Origin: a bacterium
GTDB taxonomy: Bacteria; SAR324; NAC60-12
Reading direction: 5' to 3'
Assembly: GCA_965233585.1 (NCBI GenBank)
Contig: CBDDTI010000530.1
Coordinates: 1-45,301 of the forward strand
DNA length: 45,301 bases
This document shows, piece after piece, positions 21,063 to 42,809 of the stretch. Made by a program: the position numbers and the translations under genes. Numbering within the stretch: the first letter of the stretch is position 1; each line of letters begins with the position of its first letter. The notes below the pieces were generated by a model that saw nothing but the letters and a program-made list of their open reading frames with translations, made no database searches and was not told the origin of the DNA.

Positions 21063-21085
21063 TTCCATTCATTTTATGAATTAAG

Positions 21086-21629
21086 GTAAAAGCGGATGAC
21101 AGAAACTTGTTTTTAGATGTTTTCGGCCCGAATTCATCTAAATTCATCTAAATGCGTTCTAAATTCATCTAAATTCATCTAGATGCGTTCTCGTTGCAAG
21201 CAAAACGTCAACTGATTCAATCTAAAATCATCTAAATGCACACCGATTTCTGGTGCGTGCACCAAAAGTTTGGTGCCTGCATGGCTGTGTCTAATGCTGG
21301 CATGAAAAATTTGGTGCGTGCACGAAAAGTTTGGTGCCTGCATTGCTTCGTCTAATGCTGGCATGAAAAGTTTGGTGCGTGCATGAAAAGTTTGGTGCCT
21401 GCATTGCTCCGTCTAATGCTGGCATGAAAAGTTTGGTGCGTGCATGAAAAGTTTGGTGCCTGCATTGCTCTGTCTAATGCAGGCATGAAAAAGTTGGTGC
21501 ACGCACTAAAAATTTCATGCACGCATCAAAATTTTACTTGTCTGCATTACTTTTTCTGGTGCCGGGATCTCAATTTTGATGCTGGCGTGAAATTTTAGAT
21601 CCCGGCACCAGAATGTCAGTGGTCCATAG
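21086..21629 (+). repeat. Left terminal inverted repeat (544 bp)
   Basis: Reverse complement of 41120-41724; contains AATTCATCTA 10-mers and four 61 bp units. Confidence 0.95.
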
Positions 21630-22010
21630 TTGAGTAAATTGGAGAAAAGAAGCAGAGCTTTTTTCTTTTTTACCATAACTGGTGTTGCAATGTCACAATG
21701 TTCTTCTTCATTTTGTGTAAATTTTCTTGCTGTAATGGTATCAGTAAACGAGCGATTTTTATCAATAATTTAATGTGATTTTTATCAATAATTTAATTAA
21801 TTGTGTTTTTTGTTTTTAGCACAAAAAGGTTTTATATAAATTTGATTTCTCGAAAAAGTTGTATGGTTCCTTGGTATTTTTTACCATGCAATTTTAATTT
21901 TTTCCAAAAATCACCTTTGAACTGACCGCGATTTTTTCTGGTGTTTTCTACATAATATTTTTGCGCAAAGCAGATGTTTCCTTTTTTGTTCTTTTTATAA
22001 ATTCTTCCAA

Positions 22011-23149: not shown

Positions 23150-24742
23150 TTATTTAGGGTTTTGTATAGCTAGATTCATCATGATTTTTTCATTTGTTTC
23201 AAAATTAATCAATTCTCCGTCAAGTCTTTTTAACTGAAAATGCAACAAATCCAGTCGACTTGTATTACACTTTATGTATTCCAAATTTTCAAAATGCGTC
23301 GTCACATAATTGTCTTGTTCCTCGGCTCTATTAATTGGTATAACTTTTAATACAGGGTAAAACTCGTCTCCAATTACCGAGTGATTGACGAAATTGGCAT
23401 AGCAGATCATCACTCCCGGATATAGATAGTGCGGATCTAGACGTTCGTCACTTATAAATTGATTACTTTCATCCGCCAAAACAATGTCATCATCTTGACT
23501 TATTCCTAGCAATAATCTTATTTCATGCGGCACTCTTATCCTTACTACCAAGGAGCGATTGAATTGATTGCCGACCCGTTTTACTTTAAAACGGTCTTTA
23601 TGCGCGGAAATTTGAATGAGACTTTGTAAATCTTTGCTCATACCATTAGACATGGCCTCGATTAATTCATCCGTTGTTTTGATAAACCTCTTCTCAATGC
23701 AAAAGCAAAATTGCATTGTTTCAATCATTACCCCGATTTTCACAGGTGGAAATGTTTCTGTTGGGTCAGGGTTTTGCATGGGCTGTTGCGATATAAATTC
23801 TTTTTTCTCCGGTCCCATAACAATATATTCTTCTTTGATTCCCAAAATGTTTTTAAATTCGGGCGGTATCAGCACTTTTACCTCAGGTGATTTAAATTCG
23901 GCATCGTACGTCGACGGTCCGGTGTAAATTACTCGAAAAAAGATATCGACCGATTCTTTTGTTTTCTCCGTTTGCCCAAATTCAACAAAATTACGTACTA
24001 CGCTGTCTCTTCCGTCGTTTAAGCAATTTAATAAATAAGCAAATGTTTTCTGCTGATCAAGTTTGACCTCGATTTCTTGCTTGAACGGGTCTGTACTTAC
24101 TTTAATTTTCTTATCAAAAACGCTTGACGGAACGCTGTTAACACGATTTGGAAAGGAGATGTCGGCTAAGGCTATTTTAGCTCCTTCGTTCAAATAAATG
24201 GGATGGCTCAAATGTACCTCGAAATTGTTGTTTTTCTGCGCAGGTTTTATGTTGTCGCCCATTTTTGAGTCGACGCGAATGTGCTTTGTCAAATATGACA
24301 TCGCTCGTTTTGTTTTTCGCAAATGAAGTAAAACTAGACTCGGCTGACCCGATTTTAGTTTTAGAAGTTTGTCGGACGCGTCTAGAAACTCAATGCCCAC
24401 TGATTTTATTGAAGTGTTTTGAATAGGATAATATCGTATGTTGCTTAAAGTATGGTAGAAATATTTCCGTTTTTTGCTTGAAGGCAAGTCGGCCACGCAT
24501 AAGATGTGAGAATTCTCGTTTGAGCTTGTAGACACAATGTTGGATTTAACCTGCACCACGTCAAAAACAAAATCTTGTTTCACGTTTAAATGCAGACCAA
24601 AAGCTACAACCCCAACTTCCCAATCTCTTCTTTTGTTTAATTCTAAATTTTTCGGTAAAAAATTGTTAAAACGCGTTAGCGTGTTTACGTAACAATCAGT
24701 GCTGGCGTTTGAAATGCAATATATAAGATGTCCTCCTTTCAT
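23150..24742 (-). CDS. Minor capsid (penton, PX-like) protein with two tandem jelly-roll units (530 aa)
   Basis: SNAS..Y.NT...F.N.LP....L....WEVGV N-terminal motif, repeated at residue 148 (DSK..NNNFEVHLSHPIYL...KIALADISFP). C-terminal YANFVNHSVIGD...PVLKVIP...LEY motif. Confidence 0.8.
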   Translation of the reverse strand: MKGGHLIYCISNASTDCYVNTLTRFNNFLPKNLELNKRRDWEVGVVAFGLHLNVKQDFVFDVVQVKSNIVSTSSNENSHILCVADLPSSKKRKYFYHTLSNIRYYPIQNTSIKSVGIEFLDASDKLLKLKSGQPSLVLLHLRKTKRAMSYLTKHIRVDSKMGDNIKPAQKNNNFEVHLSHPIYLNEGAKIALADISFPNRVNSVPSSVFDKKIKVSTDPFKQEIEVKLDQQKTFAYLLNCLNDGRDSVVRNFVEFGQTEKTKESVDIFFRVIYTGPSTYDAEFKSPEVKVLIPPEFKNILGIKEEYIVMGPEKKEFISQQPMQNPDPTETFPPVKIGVMIETMQFCFCIEKRFIKTTDELIEAMSNGMSKDLQSLIQISAHKDRFKVKRVGNQFNRSLVVRIRVPHEIRLLLGISQDDDIVLADESNQFISDERLDPHYLYPGVMICYANFVNHSVIGDEFYPVLKVIPINRAEEQDNYVTTHFENLEYIKCNTSRLDLLHFQLKRLDGELINFETNEKIMMNLAIQNPK

Positions 24743-24747
24743 ACTTG

Positions 24748-25827
24748 TTACGCCTGATTAATAACGTTATCTTCCGCAATCCAGCTAAGGTTTTTATAGC
24801 CTTTCCACTTGACCAACACCAACTTCTGCCCGGTTCTTTTATCTTTCTTCCTTTTAACAATTTTTTCAATGTGAAATAATTCCGGCGGCTTGGCCAGAGT
24901 CAGCTCATTAGCATAAAAATTTCCCTCTACCGTCTCGTCACCGTCCAGAGTTTCCAGTTCGTATGTAGGTATGGGTAATCGCGTAAACACCCGTTTGATC
25001 TTGTAAATTTCTTCAGTAAATTGCTTATTGTAACCTCTGTCAAATTGAGCTCTGTAGTTACTTATTCTGACCGTCTGGCCTTTCTTAAATTTAGGCGGTC
25101 GCCTCTTTATTTTCGCATAAGCCTCTTCTTGTTTCATTCGGACTTTGGGCGCGTTTTTTGCTTTTTCCGCTTCAGCCGGACTCATACCGATCATTCTATG
25201 TACGCGCGAGTTATACGTCTTTACTAAAGATTGAAGCACGTGGATAAATCGATCCGTACCCCTAGATGTCATATATTTAAACATTAGACTTTTTAGAGAT
25301 CTGTTAAATCTTTCCACAAACGGCGCGTGCACAAAGTTGTCGCTGTGTAAAAGAGTAATGCCATTACGTCGACAGTAGTCTTTAAAAAATTTATTTTTGA
25401 TCTCTAACCCTCTATCAGCTAGAATTTTTCGAGGCGGCTGGCCAGCCTTATTGACAATGGTTTTGAATCCTTGTAAAAAAACCAAAGCTGTCTTGTTTTT
25501 TATGGGTTCAACAAAGGCATATCTCGAAAAAATGTCGATCGCTGTCAGCAAGTAACGATAATTGTCATTCGCGCTTGCCATTTTTCCAATTTCAACCAAG
25601 TCTATTTGGAATTGATATCTTTTGTAATAAACATAGGTTGGGTTCCTAGGTTTTGGAGCCCTAGGTTGTCGGTGCAGAGTATAGGTGTCTGACGCCTGCA
25701 GCCATTTCTTTATTTTATTTATGGGTATGGTCCCGTTAAAATGATTAAAAACGCGGTTCGGCGATGAAAAAGCAAAAGGCGAGCCGGGCGATGTGTAAGC
25801 TTTTAAAAATTCGCGTTTAGTAATCAT
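24748..25827 (-). CDS. int: Retroviral-like (rve) integrase with C-terminal chromodomain
   Basis: YTLHR, FQIDL, IDIFSR, ADRG.E, VERFNR, YN...H..IGMSP; tail IEKI...LVKWKGY..SW. First ATG at 25827 (ORF open from 25857). Confidence 0.95.
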   Translation of the reverse strand: MITKREFLKAYTSPGSPFAFSSPNRVFNHFNGTIPINKIKKWLQASDTYTLHRQPRAPKPRNPTYVYYKRYQFQIDLVEIGKMASANDNYRYLLTAIDIFSRYAFVEPIKNKTALVFLQGFKTIVNKAGQPPRKILADRGLEIKNKFFKDYCRRNGITLLHSDNFVHAPFVERFNRSLKSLMFKYMTSRGTDRFIHVLQSLVKTYNSRVHRMIGMSPAEAEKAKNAPKVRMKQEEAYAKIKRRPPKFKKGQTVRISNYRAQFDRGYNKQFTEEIYKIKRVFTRLPIPTYELETLDGDETVEGNFYANELTLAKPPELFHIEKIVKRKKDKRTGQKLVLVKWKGYKNLSWIAEDNVINQA

Positions 25828-26245
25828 CCTCGTCGTCGTCGTTGTCGTCCTCAACATAAAACAGCGGTTTTTGTTTTGTTTTTCTTCTCTTACCGCTTCC
25901 TACCGCATGCGTGCTATTTTTTCTCTTGACCGGTCTCTTGGACGCCTGTGCAGGCCTACTCGCCTTACCAGCCAGTAAGATGTTTCTAGTCGCGGATTTT
26001 AATCTCTTTTTCGCAGCGGCTCCAACTGCTTTGCCGTCCAAGGCTTCCAGTGCGGTGTCAATGGCCGCTCGTCCCGCCTCTTTTTTCAAATATCGTCCTG
26101 CGGATCTGACACCCTCGCTTCTCGCAATTTTACCGATTGTCTTTGCGGCGCCCTTCGCCACCGGAACCAACGACCGGAAAAGATTGCTAAAAATTGAACC
26201 TAATCCCGCCCCAGCTTGCACAGACGGACCGCGGTGGTATCGCAT
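25817..26245 (-). CDS. Small basic virion core / membrane-active protein (142 aa)
   Basis: QAGAGLGSIFSNLFRSLVP motif (GxG protease-type site followed by an amphipathic helix), as commonly seen in Polintons. Confidence 0.8.
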   Translation of the reverse strand: MRYHRGPSVQAGAGLGSIFSNLFRSLVPVAKGAAKTIGKIARSEGVRSAGRYLKKEAGRAAIDTALEALDGKAVGAAAKKRLKSATRNILLAGKASRPAQASKRPVKRKNSTHAVGSGKRRKTKQKPLFYVEDDNDDDEDDY

Positions 26246-26248
26246 ACT

Positions 26249-26971
26249 TTAACAATTTTCAATTTTTTTGACGCACCTGCTTAAGGCCATCGGACTAACG
26301 CCTAATTGCTCGGCTAAACGTGATAAGCTTTTCGGCTTTTCCTGATCAACCCTACTCCGTTGTTCTCTTAAAAAGACGTGCGCGCATGCCGCGATTAGTG
26401 TTTTTGGCGAAAAAACAAACTTTTTTTCGTGTTGCTTTACTTTCTCTCTAATTTCCTTCAACTCCTTGTAGCTTAGATTTAAAGAGTGAAGAAAATATTC
26501 GCACATTAAATTTGGGCTGTAGAAAGAGTCGTCGTTTTTAAGATATTGCCACACTTTGTCCTGCTTGACGCCGGTTATGGCACATAAATCTTTCATCGGT
26601 CGCGGCACCCCCGACTCTATAAGCGCGGAGTAGATGCACATTACCGCTAAACTTTCTAAACAAACACCTCTTTTCCCTCTTTTCCCGCTAGCGTCCCATT
26701 TTTTGGCGATGACGCGTTTTAAATCCGCGCATTCGATATTGCACTTATAGCATACCCTTTGCATTGTCTCATCAGTAAAATTGTTTTTGTCGCAAGTCAC
26801 ATCCTCGCTCATTTTCTCCGTTTTAATCGATTCGAGCCGATAGTCATACGAGGCATAGAGCCGATCATGCATCACGAGCCCGCAATCTGTACATACTTCA
26901 CACCCGTTTGAAAAATCATCCACAATATTGTAATGAGAACAAGTCCTGTTGAAATTATGAAAGCGAGGCAT
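26249..26971 (-). CDS. TFIIB: TFIIB-like transcription initiation factor (240 aa)
   Basis: Zinc ribbon CSH..VDDFSNG.EVCTDCGLVMHDR; two cyclin-like repeats LAVMCIY....GVPRPMKDLC and SPKTLIAAC...LAEQLGVS...LSR. Confidence 0.88.
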   Translation of the reverse strand: MPRFHNFNRTCSHYNIVDDFSNGCEVCTDCGLVMHDRLYASYDYRLESIKTEKMSEDVTCDKNNFTDETMQRVCYKCNIECADLKRVIAKKWDASGKRGKRGVCLESLAVMCIYSALIESGVPRPMKDLCAITGVKQDKVWQYLKNDDSFYSPNLMCEYFLHSLNLSYKELKEIREKVKQHEKKFVFSPKTLIAACAHVFLREQRSRVDQEKPKSLSRLAEQLGVSPMALSRCVKKIENC

Positions 26972-27014
26972 GTTTATTTCTCCGCACGCGCTGCAAAACT
27001 GAAACGCAAATCAA

Positions 27015-27575
27015 CTATCGATCGCTTTTATATTGTTTCAAAAAATCTATAATAAAGTCCAAACTATGTTTGACCGCATCTTCGGACTTGGCCCCGATGA
27101 TTACCATCTTGCCTGTGGAAAATATTAAAACCGTGTTGGCTTCAAAAGTCACAAACATGCCCGGGAAACGTTCGGGATTGAAGCGTACTTTTTTCACGTA
27201 GCTCTCCTTTCGAAGTTTATCAAAAACGTCCGGCAGCGGTATCTCAAAGCCCGCACGAAAGGAACAAGTTAAATTGTTTATTTCCCATGTTTGCACAAAG
27301 AAACGATTGCTGATAATGTCCGTCAGCAGACTTAACGATATTTTTATATCCGCTCGCGACGGCACTTTGGTAATATTGACATGATATGATTTGTTGTTTC
27401 CGCGGGTCTTGAAAATGGTGTAGACGTATTGTTTCCTCACTACAGTAAAATTACTAAAAACTTTTTGTGACACATCTTTATTTAAGGATAACGGCCCCTC
27501 ATCCGTAAGAATAATTGTGCAGCTAAGCTTTATATTTGTCACAGTGACGTGCTCCGTGTTGTCTAAAAATGTCAT
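27015..27575 (-). CDS. TBP: TATA-box-binding-protein-like factor (186 aa)
   Basis: Two-repeat core: VTNI.LS...NF....YTIF...VNIT and INNLTCS...FNPERFPGMF...TVLIFSTGKMVIIGAKSE. Confidence 0.9.
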   Translation of the reverse strand: MTFLDNTEHVTVTNIKLSCTIILTDEGPLSLNKDVSQKVFSNFTVVRKQYVYTIFKTRGNNKSYHVNITKVPSRADIKISLSLLTDIISNRFFVQTWEINNLTCSFRAGFEIPLPDVFDKLRKESYVKKVRFNPERFPGMFVTFEANTVLIFSTGKMVIIGAKSEDAVKHSLDFIIDFLKQYKSDR

Positions 27576-28909
27576 CGTTGATTAATGGCGGTGTCGGCGG
27601 TTTAAATGTGGATTTCAATGAATTGCAGGGTGATAGTTTGAATGCGCATGCGACCCCCCTCGAAGACACGGATTTAATATCAGGTCGTACTGTGCTATAT
27701 AATAGCGTGACTCCCGTCGAAGATTTAGAAGATGTTACGTTTTCAATTCCTTCCGACCCCGAATGCGCTTTTGTTTTAAATCAGACGAGGCTAGAGGGTT
27801 ACTTTGTGGTAAAGACCGACAGCGGCGAGGGTGTAACAGACACTGACACGCCAACAATTACTAACCATTATTGCGCCGCATTATTCTCGCAAATTGAAGT
27901 CCACCTTAACGGAACTCAAATATGTGATTTGAGTGCTCCTCTTTCTTATTCGTACAAACACCACATTGACTTTCTCCTGTCCTATAACAATAATGTATTA
28001 ACAAATGTGGGACGGTCCGAAGGCTTTTGCCGAACGCACCACGACAAATGCTTTGACAATATTACCACGACCGGTAAAATGTGCCAATGCATCGCGGAGA
28101 ATCGCGCGAAAATAATAAACGACAAAAAAGTTTATTTTAGCTCAACTTTGCCCGCAGATATTTTTTACACCGACAAATATTTACCTCCGAATGTGGAAAT
28201 CACTGTTGTATTACGCAGGTTCAACCCGTGTTTCGGGCTGCTTCAAGATAATCCGAACAAAGTCTATCGCATTCGTTTAAAGGAATTAAAACTTCGCATG
28301 AGAAAAGTGTTACCGTGCGAGCGTGTGCGAAACAGGCTAAACGCCGAACTGCTAAAAGGTCGACCATTTTTTCTGCCTTTTAAAGACACGCAGATGAAGC
28401 ATTATCTGATCCCGTCTGGTTCCCTTAGTTTCTCTGCAAATCACATCAACAATAGCGAGATGTTGCCGCAACAAATTATTTTCTGCATGCTTCGAAGCGA
28501 CCTTTTTGCCAAGGGACCGAGCGATCAATTTCCCTTTAAATTTAAACACGCCGATTTAGGATCCGTCATTTTAAAAAACAATGGAAGACTTCTCATGCCT
28601 AGACCTATAGAATGCAAGATACTTACAGGCGATTATATGGAATTGTACGACCATTTTCAAAGCAACGTCGGCGGCAGAAATTGTATTTCACCCCAAGCTT
28701 TTACAGAGGGTCAGATGTTTCTCGCGTTCGACCTGACTCCGGATAAATGCCTATCCTTTCACAATCACGTCGGAGTGTCCGGAAATTTAGAACTAGACTT
28801 GACTTTTAACACCCCCACCAGAACCCCCCTAACCCTGATTTCTTACGCTATTTATAATGCCGCCATTTCCATCGACAGCAACCTTCAGGTTACCAAAATA
28901 AAATATTAA
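27569..28909 (+). CDS. Major capsid protein 1 (double jelly-roll, PY-like; 446 aa)
   Basis: LFSQIEVHLNG, ADIF..DKYLPPNV, LKLRMRKV, PF.F.H, AFDLTPD, GNL.L.L.F motifs; position next to the protease. Confidence 0.88.
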   Translation: MSSLINGGVGGLNVDFNELQGDSLNAHATPLEDTDLISGRTVLYNSVTPVEDLEDVTFSIPSDPECAFVLNQTRLEGYFVVKTDSGEGVTDTDTPTITNHYCAALFSQIEVHLNGTQICDLSAPLSYSYKHHIDFLLSYNNNVLTNVGRSEGFCRTHHDKCFDNITTTGKMCQCIAENRAKIINDKKVYFSSTLPADIFYTDKYLPPNVEITVVLRRFNPCFGLLQDNPNKVYRIRLKELKLRMRKVLPCERVRNRLNAELLKGRPFFLPFKDTQMKHYLIPSGSLSFSANHINNSEMLPQQIIFCMLRSDLFAKGPSDQFPFKFKHADLGSVILKNNGRLLMPRPIECKILTGDYMELYDHFQSNVGGRNCISPQAFTEGQMFLAFDLTPDKCLSFHNHVGVSGNLELDLTFNTPTRTPLTLISYAIYNAAISIDSNLQVTKIKY

Positions 28910-28978: not shown

Positions 28979-30313
28979 ATGACTGAAAAGGGTGGCATCG
29001 GAGGTCTAGGGTTCGAGCAGGACGATTTGACAGAACAAGCTCTTGATCTGCACGCGCCGCTCGGGGTCGATATAAGCCTTGAAAAAGGCAATGATGTGGT
29101 CTACAACAGCGTTTCCAGCGTTTCAAACACCGGACCGATCGAATTCATCATCCCGCGAGACGAAGAGTGTTCCATCATTCTGGATCAGACTAGATTAATA
29201 GGGCATTTCGTTGTCAAGACAGCAAAGGATGAAAATGTCGGACCCGACGATCGAGTCTTTCTGGCCAATAATTTCGCGAGCAATCTATTTAGCGCGGTTG
29301 AAATCTACATTAACGGTACTCAAGTCTGCGACTTGAGCACGGCAAATTCCTACCCTTTCATAAACTTTATCCAGACCGAGTTGTCGTTTGATAGAGAGGC
29401 CAAACAGAGTCAGCTAAGAGCCGAAGGTTATTTTGAAGAAAAAGAAAACGATATTGGAGCTTGCGAGCCCGGTATAAATCAGCGTTTAATACACCGTCGA
29501 AATCTTATACTTCACGGCAAAAAAGTTTATTTCTGCTCTCGATTGGGGGCGGATATTATGTATACGGATAAGTATATGCCACCGAATGTCGACATCAAGA
29601 TTAAGCTTATTAGAAACAGTCCGACATTCGGTATTCTTCACGCCGAAGATGACAAATCTTTTAAAATCGTTTTAAAGGATTTAAAGTTGAAAATGAGAAA
29701 AGTTTTGCCGGTCGAGCAGCAGAGAAAGCAATTTAGGATGAAAATGTCTCAACAGCCCTGCTATATACCCTTTAAGCTGAGTCAGTTGAAGGTTTTTGTG
29801 ATTCCAGCCGGCGTCACATCGTACACCGTTACCAATATTGCCTCACAAATACTGCCCAAACAAGTTATTTTCACCCTAATTCACAACCAAGCCTTGACGC
29901 ACGATAGCAAATTCAACCCGTTCGACTTTCAACACTTTGATCTTAATTATTTCAATCTTATTAAAAACGGACAATGCGTCTTCCCAAAAGCTTTTCAGCC
30001 GGATTTTGATGATGATAACTACATGGACCTGTACAGACACATGTACGACAGCACGGGTTTCGGCATTTCAAATAGTTCTTGCGACATTTCGCCCGCGGTT
30101 TTTAAGAGAGGAAGATGTTTTCTAACTGCCGATTTGACCCCCGATCGCTGCAACAGTTTTCACATTCACCCCGACGAAAAAGGCAAGTTGGATTTGGAAT
30201 TAGGCTTTAAAACAGCCAAGCCTCACCCCATCTACCTGCTAGCCTACAGCATTTTTAATTCCGGAATTAAAATAGAGGAGAACGGCCAAGTTGTTAGGGC
30301 CGAAGAGCGATAA
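28979..30313 (+). CDS. Major capsid protein 2 (paralogue; 444 aa)
   Basis: GPIEF.IP, LFSAVEIYING, DKYMPPNVD, NPFDFQHFDLN, DLTPD motifs; colinear with MCP1. Confidence 0.9.
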   Translation: MTEKGGIGGLGFEQDDLTEQALDLHAPLGVDISLEKGNDVVYNSVSSVSNTGPIEFIIPRDEECSIILDQTRLIGHFVVKTAKDENVGPDDRVFLANNFASNLFSAVEIYINGTQVCDLSTANSYPFINFIQTELSFDREAKQSQLRAEGYFEEKENDIGACEPGINQRLIHRRNLILHGKKVYFCSRLGADIMYTDKYMPPNVDIKIKLIRNSPTFGILHAEDDKSFKIVLKDLKLKMRKVLPVEQQRKQFRMKMSQQPCYIPFKLSQLKVFVIPAGVTSYTVTNIASQILPKQVIFTLIHNQALTHDSKFNPFDFQHFDLNYFNLIKNGQCVFPKAFQPDFDDDNYMDLYRHMYDSTGFGISNSSCDISPAVFKRGRCFLTADLTPDRCNSFHIHPDEKGKLDLELGFKTAKPHPIYLLAYSIFNSGIKIEENGQVVRAEER

Positions 30314-30798
30314 TGGCCGGTTTGAGCAACGTATTTCTAGATCGGTTTTTATCCCCACTTTGCAAGAATTTCATCGGCACCTTTGCAGTCGACACGATAC
30401 CTTCAAACTTGTGGAACACTAGCTGTTGCGCCATCGTCAATCTTTCGGTTTCAAGCCATCCCGGCAGTCATTTCATCGCCTTTTTTATTAATAAGCAAAA
30501 CTATTTGTATTATTTCGACAGCTATGCACTACCCGTGCCCGCCTATAATCACCACCTCATCCATTTTTTGAAAAAATGGGAAAATTGCGGCAGAATAAGA
30601 CATGTCCTGGACCGATCGATTCAAGCTTTCGATTCATTGTTTTGCGGGTGGTATGCTGCCGCATTCTGCATGTTTGTCAATGCATACGCAAACGCGAATC
30701 CGCGGCACTTTTGCACTTTTTTTAATCCCGTTAATTTACGCGAAAATGAAAAACGCGTCAAACATTTAGTTAATTGTTTGCAAGTCAAGCTTTATTAG
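30313..30798 (+). CDS. Adenain/Ulp1-like cysteine maturation protease (161 aa)
   Basis: IVN......GSHF (His), YFDSY (Asp), IQ.....CG.Y (Gln, Cys); TAATG stop-start overlap with MCP2. Confidence 0.93.
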   Translation: MAGLSNVFLDRFLSPLCKNFIGTFAVDTIPSNLWNTSCCAIVNLSVSSHPGSHFIAFFINKQNYLYYFDSYALPVPAYNHHLIHFLKKWENCGRIRHVLDRSIQAFDSLFCGWYAAAFCMFVNAYANANPRHFCTFFNPVNLRENEKRVKHLVNCLQVKLY

Positions 30799-34126: not shown

Positions 34127-34762
34127 ATGACGCACAAGTGTGAAACGTGTCACATATCGTTTTCCAGAAAGAGTCGTCTTGTCAATCATTTAAAATTAAA
34201 ACACAGAAATCAAGCAAATCATAGTGGTCGCGACAAGTTAAGAAAGTGCCCGTTTTGTGAACTTAAATACAGTGATAAGAACGAGTTATCGTCACACGTA
34301 GATTCGAATCACGCGGAATCAAGGGTATTTTCTAAAAGGCAAGGAGCCATTGGCGACAAAGTTTGCATTTTCCAACAAGAACTGACTCACCTAAAAAGCT
34401 CTTTGCAAGATTTTTGCAACTCTAAGCAAACGATCGAAAATGTGTTGAATCTCGTAAAAAGTCAATTTACACATCGGGTGGTTTGTCGAATAAGTATAAC
34501 AATCACGGCAGATTACGAGATACAGGGTTTAGATGAAGAAAGTCAGGGAAAAAGCGTCGACATCGATTCTTTCACGTTACGGTCAAAAGGCGTCGCGGTC
34601 AACAAATATCAAAGCGATGAGCAGATTCGAGATAGGATAAAGTCACTTTTGGTTGGATCGGTGGAGAGGGAAGACGATTTGTTAACTAGAGGTTCAGGTT
34701 GGCGATTTGCTCAACTTCAAAGTTGCAGCGTTTTAATCTATGACTGTAGCAGTATTTTTTAA
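34127..34762 (+). CDS. Two C2H2 zinc fingers fused to the putative terminal-protein region normally at the pPolB N-terminus (211 aa)
   Basis: CETC..H..H and CPFC..H...H fingers; C-terminal RGSGW motif matching the GSGW motif of Polinton pPolB N-termini. Confidence 0.75.
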   Translation: MTHKCETCHISFSRKSRLVNHLKLKHRNQANHSGRDKLRKCPFCELKYSDKNELSSHVDSNHAESRVFSKRQGAIGDKVCIFQQELTHLKSSLQDFCNSKQTIENVLNLVKSQFTHRVVCRISITITADYEIQGLDEESQGKSVDIDSFTLRSKGVAVNKYQSDEQIRDRIKSLLVGSVEREDDLLTRGSGWRFAQLQSCSVLIYDCSSIF

Positions 34763-34764: not shown

Positions 34765-37700
34765 ATGAACAGCGACTCTGTAAACGTGTCCGAGTATTTA
34801 TTAAAGTGTCGAAGTGTTTTATGGAACAGAAAATACGATGAAAAGAACTTTCTATATTGTGTCATACAACATCTTTGGCCGGAAACGGCAAACATCAGAC
34901 GATGCGAAAAAATTCCCAAGGAGTATGAAAGTAAATTTAACTTGCAAGGTTTAACCTTTCCCCTGCAGTTTAGCCAGATTAGTAAGTTTGTTCGAATTAA
35001 CAAGCACCTACCGTTACGTATAAGAGTTCTTTTTGAAGGTGAACATCAACTGAGTGTTTTAGACGTTTTCTCCAATAGATCTGGCGAGAAAAATAAGAAC
35101 AAAAATACGCTAAATTTGCTAATGATTAAAAGTGATTGTCGAATTTCATCGGCCAATAAAGACAGCATTGACGTAAATGGCATTTCCAACGTAAAAGACC
35201 TTGAGCATCAGCACCATTTTTTCACTATTGCTAATTTAAATGGCTTTTTGAACAACCGAAAATCTGCTATGACCAAAGGAAGACGGCATAGAAGTCAGTT
35301 TTATTTTTGTGACAGCTGTTTAAGAGATTTTCGTTCGCACAAGAAACAAAAATTACACGAAAAAATCTGTCAAATGGATAAACAAGCGGTGATTTATCCG
35401 GAAAAGGGCAGTGTCTTGAATTTCGATAAGCAAAGAAATGCATTTAAAGCACCTGTAGTGGGATTTGCCGATTTTGAGTGTTTTATGGAAAAGTCAGAGC
35501 AAGAAGCAAAAACATGTAAAACATGCGGAAAAGCGTGGGTGACATGCGAATGTCAAGTGTCGGGATGCACTGAGCTGAGTAAACATCGAGCTTGCGGCTA
35601 TTCAATTTGTTTTGTTGATTCGGAAAACGAAGTATTTTATCAAGAAACGTACAGTGGAAAAGACGCTGTGGAAAATTTTCTATCAAAGCTGGATTATTTC
35701 GAAGAATTAGTGGAAGCGCGAAAGCAACGGTTCAAAAACACATCTCAAATTATAGCGAGCAAACATGATTGGGAAGAGTACCGCGCCGCCACGCTATGTC
35801 ATATTTGCAAAAAAGAATTTGATTCAGGCTCGCGATTATATAAAAAAGTGGTTGATCATGATCACGTCACCGGAAACATTGTTCAAGCGGCGCATTCTAT
35901 TTGCAATCTGCAACGACAGGGCCCATTTAGAACACCTATATACTTTCACAACGCCAAAGGGTAAGTACAGACTTTTTTTAATATTTATAATCCTTGACTT
36001 GAGGGAAAGTCATTTTAAATTTTTTTAATTTTTAGATATGACATAAATCTACTAGTAGAAAAATTGGACAAAGAGGCTAATTTGATGGCGAGTAACCAAG
36101 AAAAGTTTAGGACAATCACTATTGGAAAATTTCAAATTAGGGATTCTCTAGAGCACGTGCCATCCAGTCTTGATGCGCTCATGACCGATTTATGCAAGGA
36201 TGAGACGTTTACCTTTCCGATTCTCAAACAATTCGAGCCTTACAGGAGGCTGTGGACGCGACAAAAGGCGAAAGGTTTAAAATTATTGAAAAGAAAAGGA
36301 GTATATCCGTATGAATACTTTTCATCATATGAGTCAATTAAAAACAGTCAATTTCCACCAAAAGACGCTTTCTACTCGAGATTGAGCGAAGCCCACATCT
36401 CAACCGAAGATCATAAGCACGGCTATGAAGTGTACAAGTTTTTTAATTGTAAAAATATGGACGACTACATGAAGTTATATTGCGGACTGGATGTGATTTT
36501 GCTGGCTGAGATTTTTGTAAAGTATCGAGAAATGGTGATGAAGCACTTTGAGTTGGATCCCATCTACTATTTAGGTATACCTGGCTTGTCATTTGACATC
36601 ATGCTGAAAATGTTTCAAAATGAAGAAAGAAAAGACGAAGAAGAGATTAGTGCCGATTTTATGTCGAAACCACCGGGCTCATTGGACTTGTTTCACGATC
36701 CGGCAATGGAACAGTTTTTTACACGCGGCATTAGAGGAGGGCAGAGTTTTATAGCTACCAGACAAGCGACGGGTCAGGCCGATCCTAAAGCGAGCGGCGA
36801 GCATTTACTATATGTAGATGGTAATATTTTTTATTAAACGTCAAAGAAAAAAAGATTGATTAAAATTACGATACATTTTCAGCTAACAATCTTTACGGCA
36901 GCATGGAAACACGCATGCTGCCGGTGGGTGATTTTAAGTGGGTGCCAAAAAAGGTGATAAAAACATGGACGGACAAGGACATTTTGAATTTGCCTTCGCA
37001 AAGCAGGATTGGCTATGCTTTTGAAGTGGATTTGCACTATCCAAAAAAATATCATAAGGTAAAAAAATTGTTTTTTGCTAAACACCAACTGCTAGAAAAA
37101 ATTTTTTTATTTATTTTGCAGAGAGATGATCAATTTCCTTTGGCTCCTTACACTGACACAATAAACTTTGATGATCTGTCACCGTTTAACAAACAACTTT
37201 TGAAGAAGCACTGTCCGGCTGATTACAAAAACAAACGTTACAGTTCGCGAAAGCTTCTTGCCACATTCTACCCGCGACGTAAATATGTCGTCTTGTTAGA
37301 TAATCTAAAGTATTATTTGAGACGAGGGCTGAAGCTTACAAAAATCAGACGAGCGGTCAAGTTTGAGCAAAAAGACTTTTTAAAAAACTTTATCACAAAA
37401 ATTACAAAATTAAGGTCGGAGGCGAAAACTGATTTTGAATTACGTCTCTTCAAGTTGTTTGCCAATTCCACATTTGGCAAATTTATAGGTAAAAAAAAGT
37501 AATGGCTCCCTTTTTTCACAATAAAATGTTTAATTTTTTTTTCAGAGAACGCGCGAAACTACATCGAAATCGTGTTGTGCCACAATGAAAAGAAGCTGAG
37601 AAAGACTTGCATGGGTCAGCATGTTTCGAATTTGAAAGTCATAAACGAAAACCTTGTGGCTGTCATGAAAAAACCGGCCGTTATTGAAATGAAGAAACCG

Positions 37701-38333
37701 TTGGCGGTGGGGTTTGCGATTTTGGAACTATCCAAACTCTACATGTATCGATCGTACGACAAATTTAGACGTTACTTTGGAACGGAGAATCTAAAGTTGT
37801 GCTTTTCGGACACAGACTCGTTTCTGTTTCAAGTAAAATGTCAAAATTTAGTTAAAAAGTTAAAAAGAATGGAACACATGTTCGACTTCTCAAAATACGA
37901 TAAAGATCACGAGTTGTTTGACGATAGCAGAGCCAACCATTTGTTTTACTTCAAAGACGAGCTAAAAGGAAAGGCCGCAATTACTGAATTTATCGGCTTA
38001 AGGCCAAAATGTTACAGCATGACGGTCAAGGATTTGAAAACCCGAGGAGCCAGCGTAAAGAAAATTTGTAAGGGCCTTAAAAAAACTAGTATTAAAAATC
38101 ACTTGACCTTTGAGGATTACAAAAAATGTTTAAACGAATCAGCATTGGTATATAAGCCTCTTGTTAATATTAAATCAAAGAATCACAGAATGTCAACAAC
38201 CCACCAACGAAAAATTGCTCTATCTGCCATGGACACCAAACGTTATGTGCTTTCTTGCGGAAAGTGCACTTTGGCCTTAGGAAGTTGTCATGTAAAAAAA
38301 TGTTGTAAACATGAATGTAAGGAAATCAAATAA
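34765..38333 (+). CDS. polB: Protein-primed family B DNA polymerase, 5 exons (34765-35960, 36036-36820, 36883-37058, 37122-37488, 37546-38333; 1103 aa)
   Basis: ExoI ADFE, EndoVII-like CHIC..DHDH..H..CN insert, spliced FHNAKG|YD, RKGVYPYEY, spliced YVD|ANNLYG, KLFANSTFGK, SDTDS, LRPKCY. Confidence 0.95.
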
Positions 38334-38396
38334 ACGTATTGATAAAAATTGATGGTAATATCTTGTCTCTTTTTTGTGTCAAGAAAAATTAAAAAC

Positions 38397-39083
38397 ATGG
38401 ACGGATTTGATTTGCGCTTTAAGCTTCCATCTAACTTACTCGCGGTAGGTCCCACTTCTTGCGGAAAAACGTCATGGCTAAAAAAACTGGTTGAAGATAG
38501 GGCCGTAATGTGCTCGCCCGTTCCGGAATGTATGATTCTATTTTACAAAGAATTTCAACCGGCCTATGCTGATATGGAGCGAGGGATGAACGATGACGCG
38601 CGTGAGAAGAGGTTCTGCAAATTTTCATCCATGCCAGAATCGGTTGAAGAGATGAAAGATATACTGGAAACGTTCCCTAGAGCTCTTCCAAAAATTGTAG
38701 TATTTGACGATTTTCTTGATGAAGTAGGAACGGTGCTAAAGCACTTTTTCACGGTTTTAACGCATCATTATAATTGTTTGACAGTTTTTTTGTGTCAGAA
38801 CATGTTTAGCGCCAAAAGCGAACTCAGAATGCTCAGCATCAACTCGCAGTACATGATTTTATTCAACAATCCCAGAGACCGTAGCGCCGTCTCGCACCTG
38901 GCTAAACAGGTGTATCCGGGTAACGTGCATCGGCTAAACGATGCATATGCGGCAGCAACCGGTGAAAGACCTTATGGCTATTTACTGCTGGATTTTCATC
39001 AGCAGCAGAATAATTTGGTTCGATTAAGAAGTCATATTTTTCCGGACGAACAGCCTACAAGGGCGTACAACGTACGCACGTAA
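38397..39083 (+). CDS. A32/FtsK-like genome packaging ATPase
   Basis: Walker A GPTSCGKT, Walker B IVVFDD, HH......QN, NSQY..LF.NPRD, PYGYLLLD. Likely start MDGFDLRF at 38397 (ORF open from 38349). Confidence 0.93.
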   Translation: MDGFDLRFKLPSNLLAVGPTSCGKTSWLKKLVEDRAVMCSPVPECMILFYKEFQPAYADMERGMNDDAREKRFCKFSSMPESVEEMKDILETFPRALPKIVVFDDFLDEVGTVLKHFFTVLTHHYNCLTVFLCQNMFSAKSELRMLSINSQYMILFNNPRDRSAVSHLAKQVYPGNVHRLNDAYAAATGERPYGYLLLDFHQQQNNLVRLRSHIFPDEQPTRAYNVRT

Positions 39084-40978: not shown

Positions 40979-41119
40979 GAAAAAGAAGATGAAAAGATAA
41001 AAATAAAATTTTCATATTTTTTGCAATTTCCTTAACTATTTAGTAACAGCATTCCGTTGAAGTTTATTGCAAAAAAAAAGAAAAGAAAAACCCCCGAGTT
41101 ATTGAGCACGTTTCTTCGT

Positions 41120-41724
41120 CTATGGACCGCTGACATTCTGGTGCCGGGATCTAAAATTTCACGCCAGCGTCAAAATTGAGATCCCGGCACCAGAAAAAGT
41201 AATGCAGACAAGTAAAATTTTGATGCGTGCATGAAATTTTTAGTGCGTGCACCAACTTTTTCATGCCTGCATTAGACAGAGCAATGCAGGCACCAAACTT
41301 TTCATGCACGCACCAAACTTCTCATGCCAGCATTAGACAAAGCAATGCAGGCACCAGATTTTTCGTGCACGCGCCAAACTTTTCATGCCAGCATTAGACG
41401 AAGCAATGCAGGCACCAAACTTTTCATGCACGCACCAAACTTTTCATGCCGGCATTAGACGGAGCAATGCAGGCACCAAACTTTTGGTGCACGCACCAAA
41501 TTTCTCATGCCAGCATTAGACACAGCAATGCACGCACCAAACTTTTGGTGCACGCACCAGAAATCGGTGTGCATTTAGATGATTTTAGATTGAATCAGTT
41601 GACGTTTTGCTTGCAACGAGAACGCATCTAGATGAATTTAGATGAATTTAGAACGCATTTAGATGAATTTAGATGAATTCGGGCCGAAAACATCTAAAAA
41701 CAAGTTTCTGTCATCCGCTTTTAC
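41120..41724 (-). repeat. Right terminal inverted repeat (605 bp)
   Basis: Reverse complement of 21086-21629 with five rather than four 61 bp units. Confidence 0.95.
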
Positions 41725-42809
41725 TACAACACCCATAATATCGAGTGACGTTCACAGAAAAATCAAAACAAAACTACAGCTGTAGATGGATATTCCCTTA
41801 AAACAGGCCCTTTACAAGCACAAAGCATACTAAAGACCATTTTGGGGACTGGACATCTAGCAATTTCAAGATGCAAAGAACAACTATTACAATGAGGCCT
41901 CTCACATCTCTAACAAAAAAAGAGTAGATTTTATGGTCAAAATATTTGGTTTTTGCATCATTACAAAACTCAGGACTTTGATGTCACAAACCGATGGGAT
42001 GAACACATGGTTGATTCAAAGAATGGGAGGGTCAAGATTTTGCCAAAAAAATCCAGCTTTAAAAAAATATTTTGAAACTTTTGGCAAGTGTCTTTAAATA
42101 TTTTGATTAAATTGTTTTTCCATCAGAGAGAGACTCAAGGTTCCTTCCTTTCCTGTTATATAGTAACAAGTTGTGCCAATGGAAGTTAGTTTGTTGTCAA
42201 TTTTGAGTGAACTACCAGGCCAATCAATGTGATGTTAATGCAAAATTGCAGCATTTGTGTGAGGTTAAATTCAAATACTTACTGAGAGTTACTGAAGAGA
42301 GGAAAGAATAATGGACTTAGTCAACGATGTTATTTTTTGACATCTAATGGACATTTTCTACAACTTTGGTTCTGTGTGTTCCTGTCAAAAAAGGAAAGAA
42401 TGAAGTGGACAGCTATCTAAGAAATCGTTTATATGGTAATTCCCTAATTGATTTTCAGCTTTTTTTCATGGCTCACAAGGCTGTAAGATGGCGCTGATTG
42501 ATTTGATTTGCTTACATCCATCATAATTTAGAATTGTATCAACATTATATCATCAAATAAAAATCCAAGTAGCTAATTTCTTTATAGAAATAAAAGCTTT
42601 AAAATGGCAGTAAAAACAGATAAAGTCTTGAAAAAAAATAATTAAATAAATTGCATGTAAAAGATATAGGTTGTGCAACCTCTATTCTAAAAATCTTTAC
42701 AACTCAGAAGAAAGGAATTGACATTTTTTTATAAGAGCAGCTTATTTGCATTCCTAAAGCTCTTCTGTAGGGTTTTCACATAGACAAAATAATTTGTCTA
42801 TGGGACAGG

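What the first reader, a model, noticed from the sequence alone, without database searches (positions are those of the whole stretch)
26249..27575. Maverick/Polinton encoding its own TBP and TFIIB as an adjacent gene pair
Seen: two intact, co-oriented ORFs 43 nt apart, between the capsid and core/integrase genes. One has the TBP signature (NPERFPG..LIFSTGKMVIIGAK, with a degenerate first repeat). The other has a TFIIB zinc ribbon and two cyclin-like repeats, but no recognisable B-reader (SEWRTF-like) segment. No RNA polymerase gene is present. Established: TBP and TFIIB nucleate the Pol II pre-initiation complex; many Nucleocytoviricota encode both, and beta/gammaherpesviruses use a TBP mimic for late genes. 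They are not part of the canonical Polinton gene set as I know it. Inference: this ~20 kb element builds a private initiation complex that recruits host Pol II to viral, probably late, promoters. The strong divergence and lack of introns argue against recent capture from the host.
Basis: partly seen in the sequence, partly recalled or inferred. Interest (0 to 1): 0.95.

Follow-up and report, generated by a model that had tools for sequence, protein, structure and literature searches.

The report
Maverick element encoding its own TBP–TFIIB pair
A 20.6-kb virus-like transposon with no RNA polymerase gene carries a conserved pair of very divergent copies of the two proteins that mark where host RNA polymerase II starts, so it may direct host transcription to its own genes.

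Summary
Two intact minus-strand ORFs lie 43 nt apart inside a TIR-bounded 20.6-kb Maverick/Polinton-type element.

- **TBP-like (27015-27575):** Pfam TBP E 1e-16. The model (pLDDT 92) aligns over its full length to solved TBPs.
- **TFIIB-like (26249-26971):** zinc ribbon plus two cyclin folds, family profile to human TFIIB E 8e-9. The B-reader/B-linker is missing.
- **No RNA polymerase gene.** The element's pPolB has spliceosomal introns, so transcription is nuclear.
- **The pair is conserved.** Eight other contigs carry both genes. The paired proteins co-diverge (r 0.92). A deletion chimera and a 507-aa TBP+TFIIB fusion keep the same order.
- **A larger family exists.** The TFIIB-like protein belongs to a clade of short proteins, 176 representative clusters at E<=1e-10, only 1 of the best 150 with a B-reader motif. 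A tree separates this clade from cellular TFIIB, and grouping the window's subfamily with cellular TFIIB is rejected (p-AU 0.0008).

Only a 'TBP' label in one figure legend of the adintovirus paper was found in print; no TFIIB was found.

The mechanism, a private TBP/TFIIB platform recruiting host Pol II, is inferred and untested. No element-specific promoter motif was found, and the complex prediction never ran.

The parts
27015..27575 (-). TBP-like gene (186 aa). The C-terminal repeat is canonical. The N-terminal repeat is recognisable only by fold.
   Evidence: Pfam TBP E 9.9e-17. PDB phmmer 3.1e-17 and family profile 1.5e-23. AF2 pLDDT 91.9. Foldseek ranks 1-44 all TBP. 29 family members at 33-98% identity among 34 hits.
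26249..26971 (-). TFIIB-like gene (240 aa): C-x-H...C-x2-C zinc ribbon, a short variable linker with no B-reader or B-linker, two cyclin folds and a C-terminal HTH.
   Evidence: The invariant columns of family alignment A2 include the zinc ligands C11, H13, C27 and C30. 26 close relatives. 176 representative clusters at E<=1e-10.
27025..27032 (-). Canonical TATA box (TATAAAAG) 61 nt upstream of the TFIIB-like ATG, lying inside the last codons of the TBP-like ORF.
   Evidence: TATAWAWR lies 40-100 nt upstream of the ATG in 4 of 18 genes against 0.46 expected. The observed count was reached in 0.1% of 2000 random-position trials.
26972..27014 (-). 43-nt spacer between the two genes. It holds AATAAA and two pyrimidine-CAG strings that look like splice acceptors.
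   Evidence: Read directly from the sequence. Function not tested.
21081..21671 (.). Left terminal inverted repeat, with internal 61-nt and 10-nt tandem repeats.
41078..41729 (.). Right terminal inverted repeat.
24748..25857 (-). Retrovirus-type integrase (rve core) with a C-terminal chromodomain.
   Evidence: Pfam rve 41.4 bits against a cut-off of 32.6. Chromo 24.4 bits against 25.1, just under its cut-off.
25817..26245 (-). Basic Ala/Lys/Arg-rich 142-aa protein with an acidic tail, a core-protein-like candidate. It lies 3 nt downstream of the TFIIB-like gene.
   Evidence: Translation. No Pfam family. The role is an inference from composition.
23150..24742 (-). 530-aa protein of unknown function, the last gene of the leftward block TBP > TFIIB > core > integrase > orf530.
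   Evidence: The nearest Atlas clusters are hypothetical proteins of Preplasmiviricota, which is a lead only. A TATA box lies 56 nt upstream.
27569..28909 (+). 446-aa capsid-like protein (DJR-like lead). Its ATG overlaps the divergent TBP-like ATG by 7 nt.
   Evidence: No Pfam hit.
28979..30313 (+). 444-aa paralogue of the preceding protein.
   Evidence: BLASTP 39% identity, E 5e-98.
30313..30798 (+). 161-aa candidate adenovirus-type cysteine protease.
   Evidence: Pfam Peptidase_C5 E 0.077, sub-threshold.
34765..38333 (+). [quoted passage not shown] Introns at 35961-36035, 36821-36882 and 37489-37545, with a possible in-frame one at 37059-37121.
   Evidence: Pfam DNA_pol_B_2 30.4 and 26.0 bits against a cut-off of 25.8 in two exons. 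GT...AG with pyrimidine tracts, and all three junctions restore the frame of the next ORF (phases worked out by hand).
38349..39083 (+). Candidate packaging ATPase.
   Evidence: Weak P-loop ATPase matches only (ATPase_2, 18 bits).
34127..34762 (+). C2H2 zinc-finger protein, a further candidate DNA-binding regulator.
   Evidence: Pfam zf-C2H2 27.2 bits against a cut-off of 25.2.

Best explanation
The two ORFs are real, functional and very divergent homologues of TBP and TFIIB. They are inherited as a fixed, adjacent, co-diverging module (TBP upstream of TFIIB) in a lineage of Maverick/Polinton-type elements.

Most likely mechanism (inferred):
1. The TBP-like saddle binds and bends promoter DNA of the element.
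2. The TFIIB-like core (two cyclin folds plus the C-terminal HTH) docks on that TBP-DNA complex.
3. The zinc ribbon brings in host RNA polymerase II.
4. The element thereby nucleates its own pre-initiation platform in the nucleus without depending on, or competing for, host TBP/TFIID and TFIIB.

The TFIIB-like protein lacks the B-reader and B-linker, so start-site reading and promoter opening must work differently or be supplied by the host.

What is shown: identity, fold, conservation, linkage, absence of a polymerase gene, and nuclear (spliced) expression of the element.

What is inferred: DNA binding, binding of the two proteins to each other, and recruitment of Pol II. I put the identity part at about 0.95. 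The stated confidence is for the mechanism.
For: **Identity and fold**
- TBP: Pfam E 1e-16, PDB profile 1.5e-23, model pLDDT 92 with Foldseek ranks 1-44 all TBP.
- TFIIB: human TFIIB is the best PDB hit by sequence (2.3e-6) and by profile (7.7e-9). All listed Foldseek ranks 1-36 are TFIIB, TFB or Brf.

**Functional residues kept across relatives of 34-88% identity**
- Zinc ligands C11, H13, C27 and C30 are invariant in alignment A2, 19 sequences.
- In the TBP-like C-repeat, F137-P138 is invariant. G139, F152, G155 and K156 are at least 90% conserved in alignment A1, 21 sequences. They align to the FPG and (I/L)F.SGK motifs of solved TBPs.

**Linkage**
- 8 TBP-like and TFIIB-like cluster pairs share an identical longest-contig length: 38135, 13686, 9421, 9991, 1794, 11102, 3532 and 5462. 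On the 1794- and 3532-nt contigs the two genes can only be neighbours.
- Pairwise distances of the 9 pairs correlate at r 0.92, reached in 1 of 5000 permutations. The two proteins diverge at equal rates, 0.41 and 0.42.
- P0030 is a TBP-N/TFIIB-C deletion chimera.
- P0179 (507 aa) is TBP-like plus TFIIB-like in one protein. hhalign against A1 gives probability 97.5%, E 6e-12. It sits in a different deep sub-clade from the window's protein.

**Not a recent capture**
- 73 rows form one clade (SH-aLRT 99) that excludes 2 cellular eukaryotic TFIIBs.
- The constrained alternative is rejected (p-AU 0.00078).
- GC3 and codon usage lie inside the range of the other element genes.

**Which polymerase**
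- No RNA polymerase gene is present.
- pPolB carries at least 3 spliceosomal introns whose removal restores the frame.
- The integrase has a chromodomain-like tail (24.4 bits against a 25.1 cut-off).
- No Rfam family or tRNA gene lies in the element.

**Promoters**
- TATA boxes are enriched 40-100 nt upstream of ATGs, 4 of 18 genes against 0.46 expected.
Against: **No binding evidence**
- There is no binding evidence of any kind. The complex prediction never ran.

**Missing B-reader/B-linker**
- It is absent here and in 149 of the best 150 relatives.
- In canonical TFIIB this segment is needed for start-site selection and DNA opening (recalled). A protein without it could be an inhibitor rather than an initiator.

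**Promoters**
- The TATA boxes found are canonical, so host TBP could serve them.
- A k-mer survey of 18 upstream regions found no element-specific motif, only A/T-rich words.

**TBP-like N-terminal repeat**
- It is unrecognisable by sequence.
- It lacks helix H1 in the model.
- Whether its invariant F43 and F55 sit at the DNA-kinking positions was not tested by superposition.

**TFIIB-like model**
- Quality is only moderate: pLDDT 71, ribbon below 50, TM 0.31-0.40 to solved TFIIBs.

**Missing data**
- Genomic context and host of the wider family are unknown.
- No expression data and no dN/dS.
Confidence: 0.55

Rival explanations
1. Decoy or repressor. The TFIIB-like protein without a B-reader and the variant TBP form non-productive complexes with host TBP, TFIIB, Pol II or promoters. 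This would shut down or skew host transcription, or keep the integrated element silent.
For: - The B-reader and B-linker are missing.
- The TBP stirrup reads N-P-E-R-F, where a eukaryotic TBP fragment found here reads E-P-E-L-F.
- No private promoter motif was found.
Against: - A decoy needs only one protein. Here two are kept adjacent and co-diverge at equal rates, and they are fused in one relative. That fits partners working together on DNA.
- The zinc ligands, the DNA-side Phe residues and the HTH are all conserved.
- The clade is very large and old.
Confidence: 0.2
2. The pair serves another polymerase. This could be host Pol III or Pol I, in the manner of Brf or Rrn7. It could also be the polymerase of a co-infecting large DNA virus, as in a virophage-like lifestyle.
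For: - Brf1 and Brf2 are among the structural hits.
- The viral structure hits are almost all giant-virus TFIIBs.
- One source names a relative, P0207, 'TFIIIB Brf1 / TFIIB'.
Against: - There is no Brf-type C-terminal extension. The protein ends after the second cyclin fold.
- No tRNA gene or Rfam RNA lies in the element.
- The element's pPolB is spliced and the integrase has a chromodomain-like tail, so expression is nuclear.
- Identity to giant-virus TFIIBs is at most 18%, no better than to cellular ones.
Confidence: 0.1
3. A role outside transcription. The TBP fold and the TFIIB/ORC6-like cyclin folds could bind the repeat-rich termini, to mark the origin for protein-primed replication or to assist integration or packaging.
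For: - One relative, P0205, has a weak ORC6 second-cyclin-domain match, E 0.008.
- The TIRs carry arrays of 61-nt and 10-nt repeats that could be binding sites.
- The genes sit beside the integrase and a core-like protein.
Against: - The best sequence and structure matches are TFIIB proper, including the polymerase-docking zinc ribbon, which ORC6 lacks (recalled).
- All listed Foldseek ranks 1-36 are TFIIB, TFB or Brf.
- The TBP C-repeat is close to canonical.
Confidence: 0.08
4. Passenger genes. These would be host TBP and TFIIB copies picked up by chance and now decaying, with no function for the element.
For: Mavericks do capture host genes (recalled). The first TBP repeat is degenerate.
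Against: - ORFs are intact in 20 or more relatives down to 34-38% identity, with functional motifs invariant.
- Linkage and co-divergence.
- The clade is separate from cellular TFIIB and the constrained tree is rejected.
- Codon usage is like the rest of the element.
Confidence: 0.02

Closest known systems
TFIIB and TBP homologues of giant viruses (Nucleocytoviricota), e.g. Marseillevirus and mimivirus TFIIB, the asfarvirus C315R homologue, and poxvirus VITF-3 (PMC12917281; search listing and start of abstract only)
   Same: A virus-encoded TBP/TFIIB-type promoter-recognition pair. These are the best hits of the TFIIB-like model in the viral structure library: 15 hits at E<=1e-3, best 1.8e-5.
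   Different: Those viruses encode their own multi-subunit RNA polymerase, and most transcribe in cytoplasmic factories (recalled). This element has none and is spliced. Identity is at most 18%, no closer than to cellular TFIIB.
Beta- and gamma-herpesvirus late-gene pre-initiation complex with a viral TBP mimic (recalled; not looked up here)
   Same: The logic is the same: a nuclear DNA virus without a polymerase supplies its own TATA-type binding protein to bring host Pol II to a subset of its promoters.
   Different: The herpesvirus mimic has no sequence similarity to TBP and contacts Pol II directly, and no TFIIB homologue is involved. Here both proteins are true homologues.
Cellular TFIIB family (TFIIB, archaeal TFB, Brf1, Brf2)
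   Same: Zinc ribbon plus two cyclin folds. Human TFIIB is the best solved match. The ribbon is of the C-x-H...C-x2-C type.
   Different: No B-reader or B-linker: the linker is about 20 positions against about 66 residues. The protein has 240 aa against 316. It forms a separate clade.
'TBP' gene labelled in a MELD virus with an adintovirus-like PolB (Starrett et al. 2021, PMC8502044, Fig. 5 legend; section 3.4 read in full, figure and supplements not seen)
   Same: A TBP homologue in a Polinton-related midsize dsDNA virus.
   Different: It is only a label in a legend, in a section on non-animal datasets. No TFIIB, no pairing, no discussion. Whether it is the same family could not be checked.
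TFB homologue of an archaeal rod-shaped virus (Saccharolobus solfataricus rod-shaped virus 1; rank 10)
   Same: A small virus carrying a TFB/TFIIB homologue. That it has no polymerase of its own is recalled.
   Different: The host is an archaeon, no TBP partner is known to me, and the similarity is remote (16% identity).

Membership tests
TBP (Pfam PF00352) | TBP repeat recognisable by sequence | tested here: met
   The C-terminal repeat (residues 98-182) scores 61 bits against a cut-off of 22.9. 35 of 35 PDB hits are TBP.
TBP (Pfam PF00352) | Two tandem repeats forming one saddle | tested here: met
   Met by fold only. AF2 pLDDT 91.9. About 190 columns align to whole TBPs at TM 0.53-0.71. By sequence the N-repeat is not detectable, and it lacks helix H1 in the model.
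TBP (Pfam PF00352) | Two pairs of DNA-kinking phenylalanines | tested here: inconclusive
   In the C-repeat, F137 is invariant and F152 is at least 90% conserved. They align to the FPG and (I/L)F.SGK motifs of solved TBPs. In the N-repeat, F43 and F55 are invariant, but their equivalence was not tested by superposition.
TBP (Pfam PF00352) | Binds and bends TATA DNA | not testable with these tools
   Needs EMSA, SELEX or a structure.
TFIIB (canonical general factor) | N-terminal zinc ribbon | tested here: met
   C11, H13, C27 and C30 are invariant. Pfam Zn_Ribbon_TF scores 21.9 bits, under the cut-off of 29, in the window protein, but 34.6 and 31.5 bits in relatives P0066 and P0130. It aligns to the human ribbon. 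Model confidence for the ribbon is low.
TFIIB (canonical general factor) | B-reader and B-linker between ribbon and core | tested here: not met
   Profile positions 40 to 60 span what is residues 48 to 114 in human TFIIB. That region is variable and has pLDDT below 50. The [ST]EWR motif is absent here and occurs in only 1 of the best 150 relatives, and that one is a cellular TFIIB.
TFIIB (canonical general factor) | Two cyclin-fold repeats with a C-terminal HTH | tested here: met
   10 helices between residues 68 and 239. All listed Foldseek ranks 1-36 are TFIIB, TFB or Brf. The Pfam TFIIB repeat is sub-threshold here at 13.8 bits but passes in relatives, for example P0200 at 41.6 bits. HTH matches fall at residues 210-239.
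TFIIB (canonical general factor) | Binds TBP-DNA and the Pol II dock | not tested
Otherwise this needs biochemistry.
Maverick/Polinton | Long terminal inverted repeats | tested here: met
   Arms of 420-440 nt at 92-94% complementarity. Ends at about 21081 and 41729.
Maverick/Polinton | [quoted passage not shown] | tested here: met
   DNA_pol_B_2 scores 30.4 and 26.0 bits against a cut-off of 25.8 in two exons.
Maverick/Polinton | Retrovirus-type (rve) integrase | tested here: met
   rve scores 41.4 bits against a cut-off of 32.6.
Maverick/Polinton | Capsid module: double-jelly-roll major capsid protein, penton, packaging ATPase, adenovirus-type protease | tested here: inconclusive
   Only leads. 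A DJR-like domain occurs in 15% of members of the nearest Atlas cluster. ATPase_2 scores 18 bits. Peptidase_C5 has E 0.077. No penton was identified.
Maverick/Polinton | 5-6 bp target-site duplication | tested here: not met
   No matching flanks were found at the inferred ends. The exact ends are uncertain by a few bases.
Giant-virus TFIIB/TBP systems | Accompanied by a virus-encoded multi-subunit RNA polymerase | tested here: not met
   No polymerase family appears among the element's ORFs.

The most novel reading that the evidence does not exclude
The pair may be one visible tip of an old and widespread module of Polinton-type and related midsize dsDNA viruses. The module would be a TBP-like protein plus a short TFIIB-like protein without a B-reader. 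The TFIIB-like side alone has 176 representative clusters at E<=1e-10. The two proteins would have co-evolved into an orthogonal pair that takes over host Pol II without using host TBP or TFIIB. The changed TBP stirrup (N-P-E-R-F instead of E-P-E-L-F) would be part of a private interface. Such a module would be a minimal natural solution for Pol II recruitment without a B-reader. It would also be a candidate relative of the giant-virus TFIIB/TBP genes.
Probability: 0.3. Interest if true: 0.9.

Novelty: new variant of a known kind. Interest (0 to 1): 0.78.

Why it matters
- **A new transcription strategy.** Small nuclear DNA viruses and virus-like transposons are thought to rely wholly on the host's general transcription factors. 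Only giant viruses, which have their own polymerase, are known to carry both TBP and TFIIB. A 20-kb element without a polymerase that keeps a co-evolving TBP/TFIIB pair would therefore be a third strategy, between full dependence and full autonomy.
- **A natural experiment on TFIIB.** It tests what TFIIB can do without its B-reader and B-linker.
- **Likely mis-annotation.** The size of the short TFIIB-like clade suggests that many unannotated sequences in public data are not cellular TFIIB genes, as at least one source label (P0207) implies.
- **A possible tool.** If the pair is orthogonal to the host factors, it could become a tool for insulated gene expression.

Tried and rejected
**Complex prediction.** TBP-like (A1) with the TFIIB-like core (A2, residues 60-240). 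It never ran, so there is no result either way.

**Cluster look-up.** Taxa and accessions of the relatives therefore stay unknown.

**Genomic context of relatives.**
- Alignment A3 was too diverse for the search for related loci.
- A scan of genome contigs with P0207 gave one locus, L001. It is a chance match inside an 825-aa ATPase of a Gracilibacteria MAG.
No DNA of relatives, no direct view of neighbouring genes and no dN/dS could be obtained.

**Private promoter motif.** Shared 6- to 8-mers in 18 upstream regions were only A/T-rich words. The 1.1-kb non-coding centre showed nothing decisive.

**Internal repeat in the TBP-like family.** Not detectable by profile-profile comparison.

**RNA genes.** No Rfam family or tRNA gene lies in the element.

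**Target-site duplication.** None found.

**Names from the third word-indexed search with A3.** 53 hits, of which only 2 carry names: one 'hypothetical protein' and one 'TFIIIB Brf1/TFIIB'.

**Literature.**
- Searches were. Passages were read in PMC8502044, 10.1101/697771, 10.1101/2022.05.25.493380, PMC12220804 and PMC11502894.
- No TFIIB in a Polinton, Maverick or adintovirus was found. The other mentions are giant-virus marker genes or reference-list items.
- Supplements are closed and figures are not held. A gene map or table could name such genes without my seeing it.

**Rejected idea: archaeal origin of the TBP-like gene.** Archaeal TBPs score best. The reason is that the single good repeat of the query matches both repeats of the more symmetrical archaeal proteins. 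This is not evidence of origin.
Full report
**1. What is in the sequence**

The two ORFs are real and intact. Both lie on the minus strand and are separated by 43 nt. The TBP-like ORF is 27015-27575 (186 aa). The TFIIB-like ORF is 26249-26971 (240 aa).

They lie inside an element of about 20.6 kb.
- It is bounded by terminal inverted repeats at about 21081-21671 and 41078-41729, with arms of 420-440 nt at 92-94% complementarity.
- It encodes an rve integrase with a C-terminal chromodomain-like tail, 24748-25857.
- It encodes a weak ATPase match and a weak adenovirus-type protease match.
- It encodes two paralogous 445-aa proteins, 39% identical. Their nearest Atlas clusters carry a DJR-like domain in 15% of members, which is a lead only.

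It is therefore a Maverick/Polinton-type element, although no target-site duplication was found. LTR retrotransposons flank it.

None of the element's ORFs of 100 aa or more matches an RNA polymerase family.

**2. The TBP-like protein**

- Pfam TBP matches residues 98-182 at E 9.9e-17.
- All 35 PDB sequence hits are TBPs. The family profile reaches 1.5e-23.
- The N-terminal half is not recognisable by sequence. It finds no TBP hit in PDB, and the two halves of the family profile do not match each other (E 0.21).
- An AlphaFold model was built from 21 family members only, without templates. It has pLDDT 91.9 and folds into a complete saddle.
- Foldseek ranks 1-44 in PDB are all TBPs, with about 190 aligned columns and TM 0.53-0.71.
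- The N-repeat lacks helix H1 in the model.
- In the C-repeat, F137-P138 is invariant. G139, F152, G155 and K156 are at least 90% conserved. They align with the corresponding motifs of solved TBPs.
- The stirrup reads N-P-E-R-F. A eukaryotic TBP fragment among the hits reads E-P-E-L-F in its second repeat and N-P-K-R-F in its first.

**3. The TFIIB-like protein**

- Pfam gives only sub-threshold matches: ribbon 21.9 bits, TFIIB repeat 13.8 bits, and HTH matches at the C-terminus.
- Human TFIIB is the best solved match by phmmer (2.3e-6) and by family profile (7.7e-9). Ribbon and first cyclin repeat are collinear.
- The zinc ligands C11, H13, C27 and C30 are invariant.
- The model has pLDDT 71, with the ribbon and linker below 50. 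It shows ten helices, that is two cyclin folds.
- All listed Foldseek ranks 1-36 in PDB are TFIIB, TFB, Brf1 or Brf2. The TM-score is only 0.31-0.40.
- The stretch between ribbon and core is about 20 profile positions, against about 66 residues in human TFIIB. It is variable.

**4. Conservation and linkage**

The word-indexed searches found 34 hits for the TBP-like protein. Of these, 29 are family members at 33-98% identity, one is a chimera and four are cellular-type TBPs. For the TFIIB-like protein they found 26 hits.

For the alignments I used 21 of the 34 and 19 of the 26. I dropped fragments, the chimera, the cellular TBPs and near-identical copies.

The evidence for linkage is as follows.
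- Eight TBP-like and TFIIB-like cluster pairs report the same longest-contig length: 38135, 13686, 9421, 9991, 1794, 11102, 3532 and 5462. On the two shortest contigs the two genes must be neighbours.
- Treating these eight plus the window as nine pairs, the pairwise distances of the two proteins correlate at r 0.92, reached in 1 of 5000 permutations. The mean distances are equal, 0.41 and 0.42.
- P0030 joins the N-half of a TBP-like protein to the C-part of a TFIIB-like protein. This is a deletion product that presupposes the same gene order.
- P0179 (507 aa) carries a TBP-like half that matches the whole family profile (hhalign probability 97.5%, E 6e-12). A ribbon and a TFIIB repeat follow it. 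I cannot tell whether P0179 is a true fusion or a merged gene model. Either way the order TBP then TFIIB recurs in a distant relative.

**5. A much larger family**

- An exhaustive profile search found 781 representative proteins at E<=1e-3, 176 at E<=1e-10 and 16 at E<=1e-30. Each representative stands for a cluster at 50% identity.
- The best 150 have a median length of 240 aa, and 112 have the ribbon motif. Only one has the [ST]EWR B-reader motif, and that one is a cellular-type TFIIB.
- I scanned 22 of the 150 against Pfam. All 22 hit the TFIIB ribbon (18 of 22), the TFIIB repeat (12 of 22) or both.
- I built a quick maximum-likelihood tree of 79 rows: 73 of this family, 2 cellular eukaryotic TFIIBs and 4 archaeal TFBs as root. 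It puts all 73 in one clade (SH-aLRT 99, stem length 1.24).
- The window's protein is nested deep inside that clade, and P0179 lies in another deep sub-clade.
- Forcing the window's 15-row subfamily to group with the two cellular TFIIBs costs 84.9 log-likelihood units and is rejected (p-AU 0.00078).
- Caveats: the group was named after the tree was seen, only two cellular eukaryotic sequences of unknown taxon were available, and branches are long.
- GC, GC3 and codon usage of both genes lie within the range of the other element genes.

Taken together, this is an old dedicated lineage and not a recent capture.

**6. Which polymerase**

The pPolB gene is split by three short GT...AG introns with pyrimidine tracts, at 35961-36035, 36821-36882 and 37489-37545. 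A possible in-frame fourth lies at 37059-37121. At each of the three junctions, the phase left by the upstream exon continues exactly into the frame of the next ORF, with no stop in between (arithmetic by hand, exons not joined).

The element is therefore expressed through the host spliceosome, which implies nuclear transcription. No Rfam RNA or tRNA gene lies in the element. With no polymerase gene of its own, host Pol II is the obvious enzyme.

**7. Promoters**

- TATAWAWR occurs 19 times in the element. In 4 of 18 genes it starts 40-100 nt upstream of the ATG: orf203, orf530, the TFIIB-like gene and orf242.
- Random positions give 0.46 on average, and only 0.1% of 2000 trials reach 4.
- The TFIIB-like gene has TATAAAAG 61 nt upstream, inside the end of the TBP-like ORF.
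- No element-specific motif emerged.
- The five leftward genes (TBP, TFIIB, core-like, integrase, orf530) are packed with gaps of 43, 3, -41 and 5 nt.
- The TBP-like start overlaps the divergent capsid-like start by 7 nt.

**8. Mechanism**

The best-supported reading has four steps.
1. The TBP-like saddle binds promoter DNA.
2. The TFIIB-like core docks on it.
3. The ribbon recruits host Pol II.
4. The element thereby gains its own initiation platform.

Shown: homology, fold, conserved ligand and DNA-side residues, fixed linkage and co-divergence, absence of a polymerase, and nuclear expression. Inferred: every binding step.

The missing B-reader is the main difficulty and feeds the main rival, a decoy or repressor. 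Against the decoy stands the need to keep two co-evolving partners. The changed stirrup could mean a private TBP-TFIIB interface. That is a hypothesis only, because the complex prediction never ran.

**9. Comparison with what is known**

- In the viral structure library the best matches are giant-virus TFIIBs, plus one archaeal rod-shaped virus TFB. Identity is at most 18%. No Preplasmiviricota entry appears among the named hits.
- Five full-text searches and passages of five papers gave one relevant item. [quoted passage not shown] 5 of the adintovirus paper, PMC8502044. The surrounding section, which I read in full, deals with non-animal datasets.
- No TFIIB in a Polinton, Maverick or adintovirus was found. 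Figures and supplements could not be seen.
- By function the closest analogue is the herpesvirus late-gene TBP mimic (recalled). By homology the closest are the giant-virus pairs. The element is a member of neither system.

**10. Verdict**

The identity of both proteins is secure and their conservation as a module is well supported. The proposed function is plausible but untested.

I rate it a new variant of a known kind, with high interest. The unexpectedly large TFIIB-like clade without a B-reader adds to that interest.

Noticed in passing
window 34765-38333 (+): The pPolB gene has at least three short (57-75 nt) canonical GT-AG introns whose removal restores one reading frame. The element's genes are therefore not all intronless, and the polymerase looks intact.
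   Followed up: yes
window 27569-28909 and 28979-30313 (+): Two tandem paralogous capsid-like genes, 39% identical. Two copies of a DJR-like protein in one Maverick is unusual. No penton gene was identified.
   Followed up: partly
P0179 (507 aa) and P0030 (187 aa), protein hits: P0179 joins a TBP-like half and a TFIIB-like half in one protein, either a fusion or a merged gene model. P0030 is a TBP-N/TFIIB-C chimera, probably from an internal deletion in a decaying copy.
   Followed up: partly
window 27569-27575: The start codons of the divergent TBP-like and capsid-like ORFs overlap by 7 nt. Each gene's promoter must therefore lie inside the other's coding region, or the true capsid start or exon lies elsewhere.
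   Followed up: no
window 32134-33260: The element's 1.1-kb non-coding, A/T-rich centre lies between divergent gene blocks. It holds TATA boxes on both strands (32223-, 32348+, 32351-), a perfect TGACGTCA palindrome (CRE-like, name recalled) at 32826-32833, and a 45-nt direct repeat at 33126-33230 just upstream of orf256.
   Followed up: partly
window 21131-21535 and 41214-41679: The TIRs contain arrays of 61-nt (4-5 copies), 20-nt and 10-nt tandem repeats. These are possible protein-binding sites for replication or integration.
   Followed up: no
window 34127-34762 and 39464-40978 (+): There is a C2H2 zinc-finger protein (211 aa), and a 504-aa protein with a weak single C2H2 match. The 504-aa protein also has a 120-nt tandem duplication at 40400-40632. 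The element may carry further DNA-binding regulators.
   Followed up: no
window 2677-5874 (-) and 10837-14711 (+): Two LTR-retrotransposon pol regions (protease, RT, RNase H, integrase) lie in inverted orientation, 72-74% alike. The second is preceded by a DUF7041 gag-like ORF. GC is 0.51-0.57 against 0.33-0.40 around them.
   Followed up: no
window 8743-8985, 15373-15576, 15773-16280, 18343-18560: Several near-perfect hairpin inverted repeats of 100-200 nt, some sharing sequence with 18009-18149 and 20725-20891. They look like copies of a small foldback or MITE-type repeat.
   Followed up: no
rank 10: An archaeal rod-shaped virus (Saccharolobus solfataricus rod-shaped virus 1) has an annotated TFB homologue. 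It is another small virus that carries an initiation factor.
   Followed up: no
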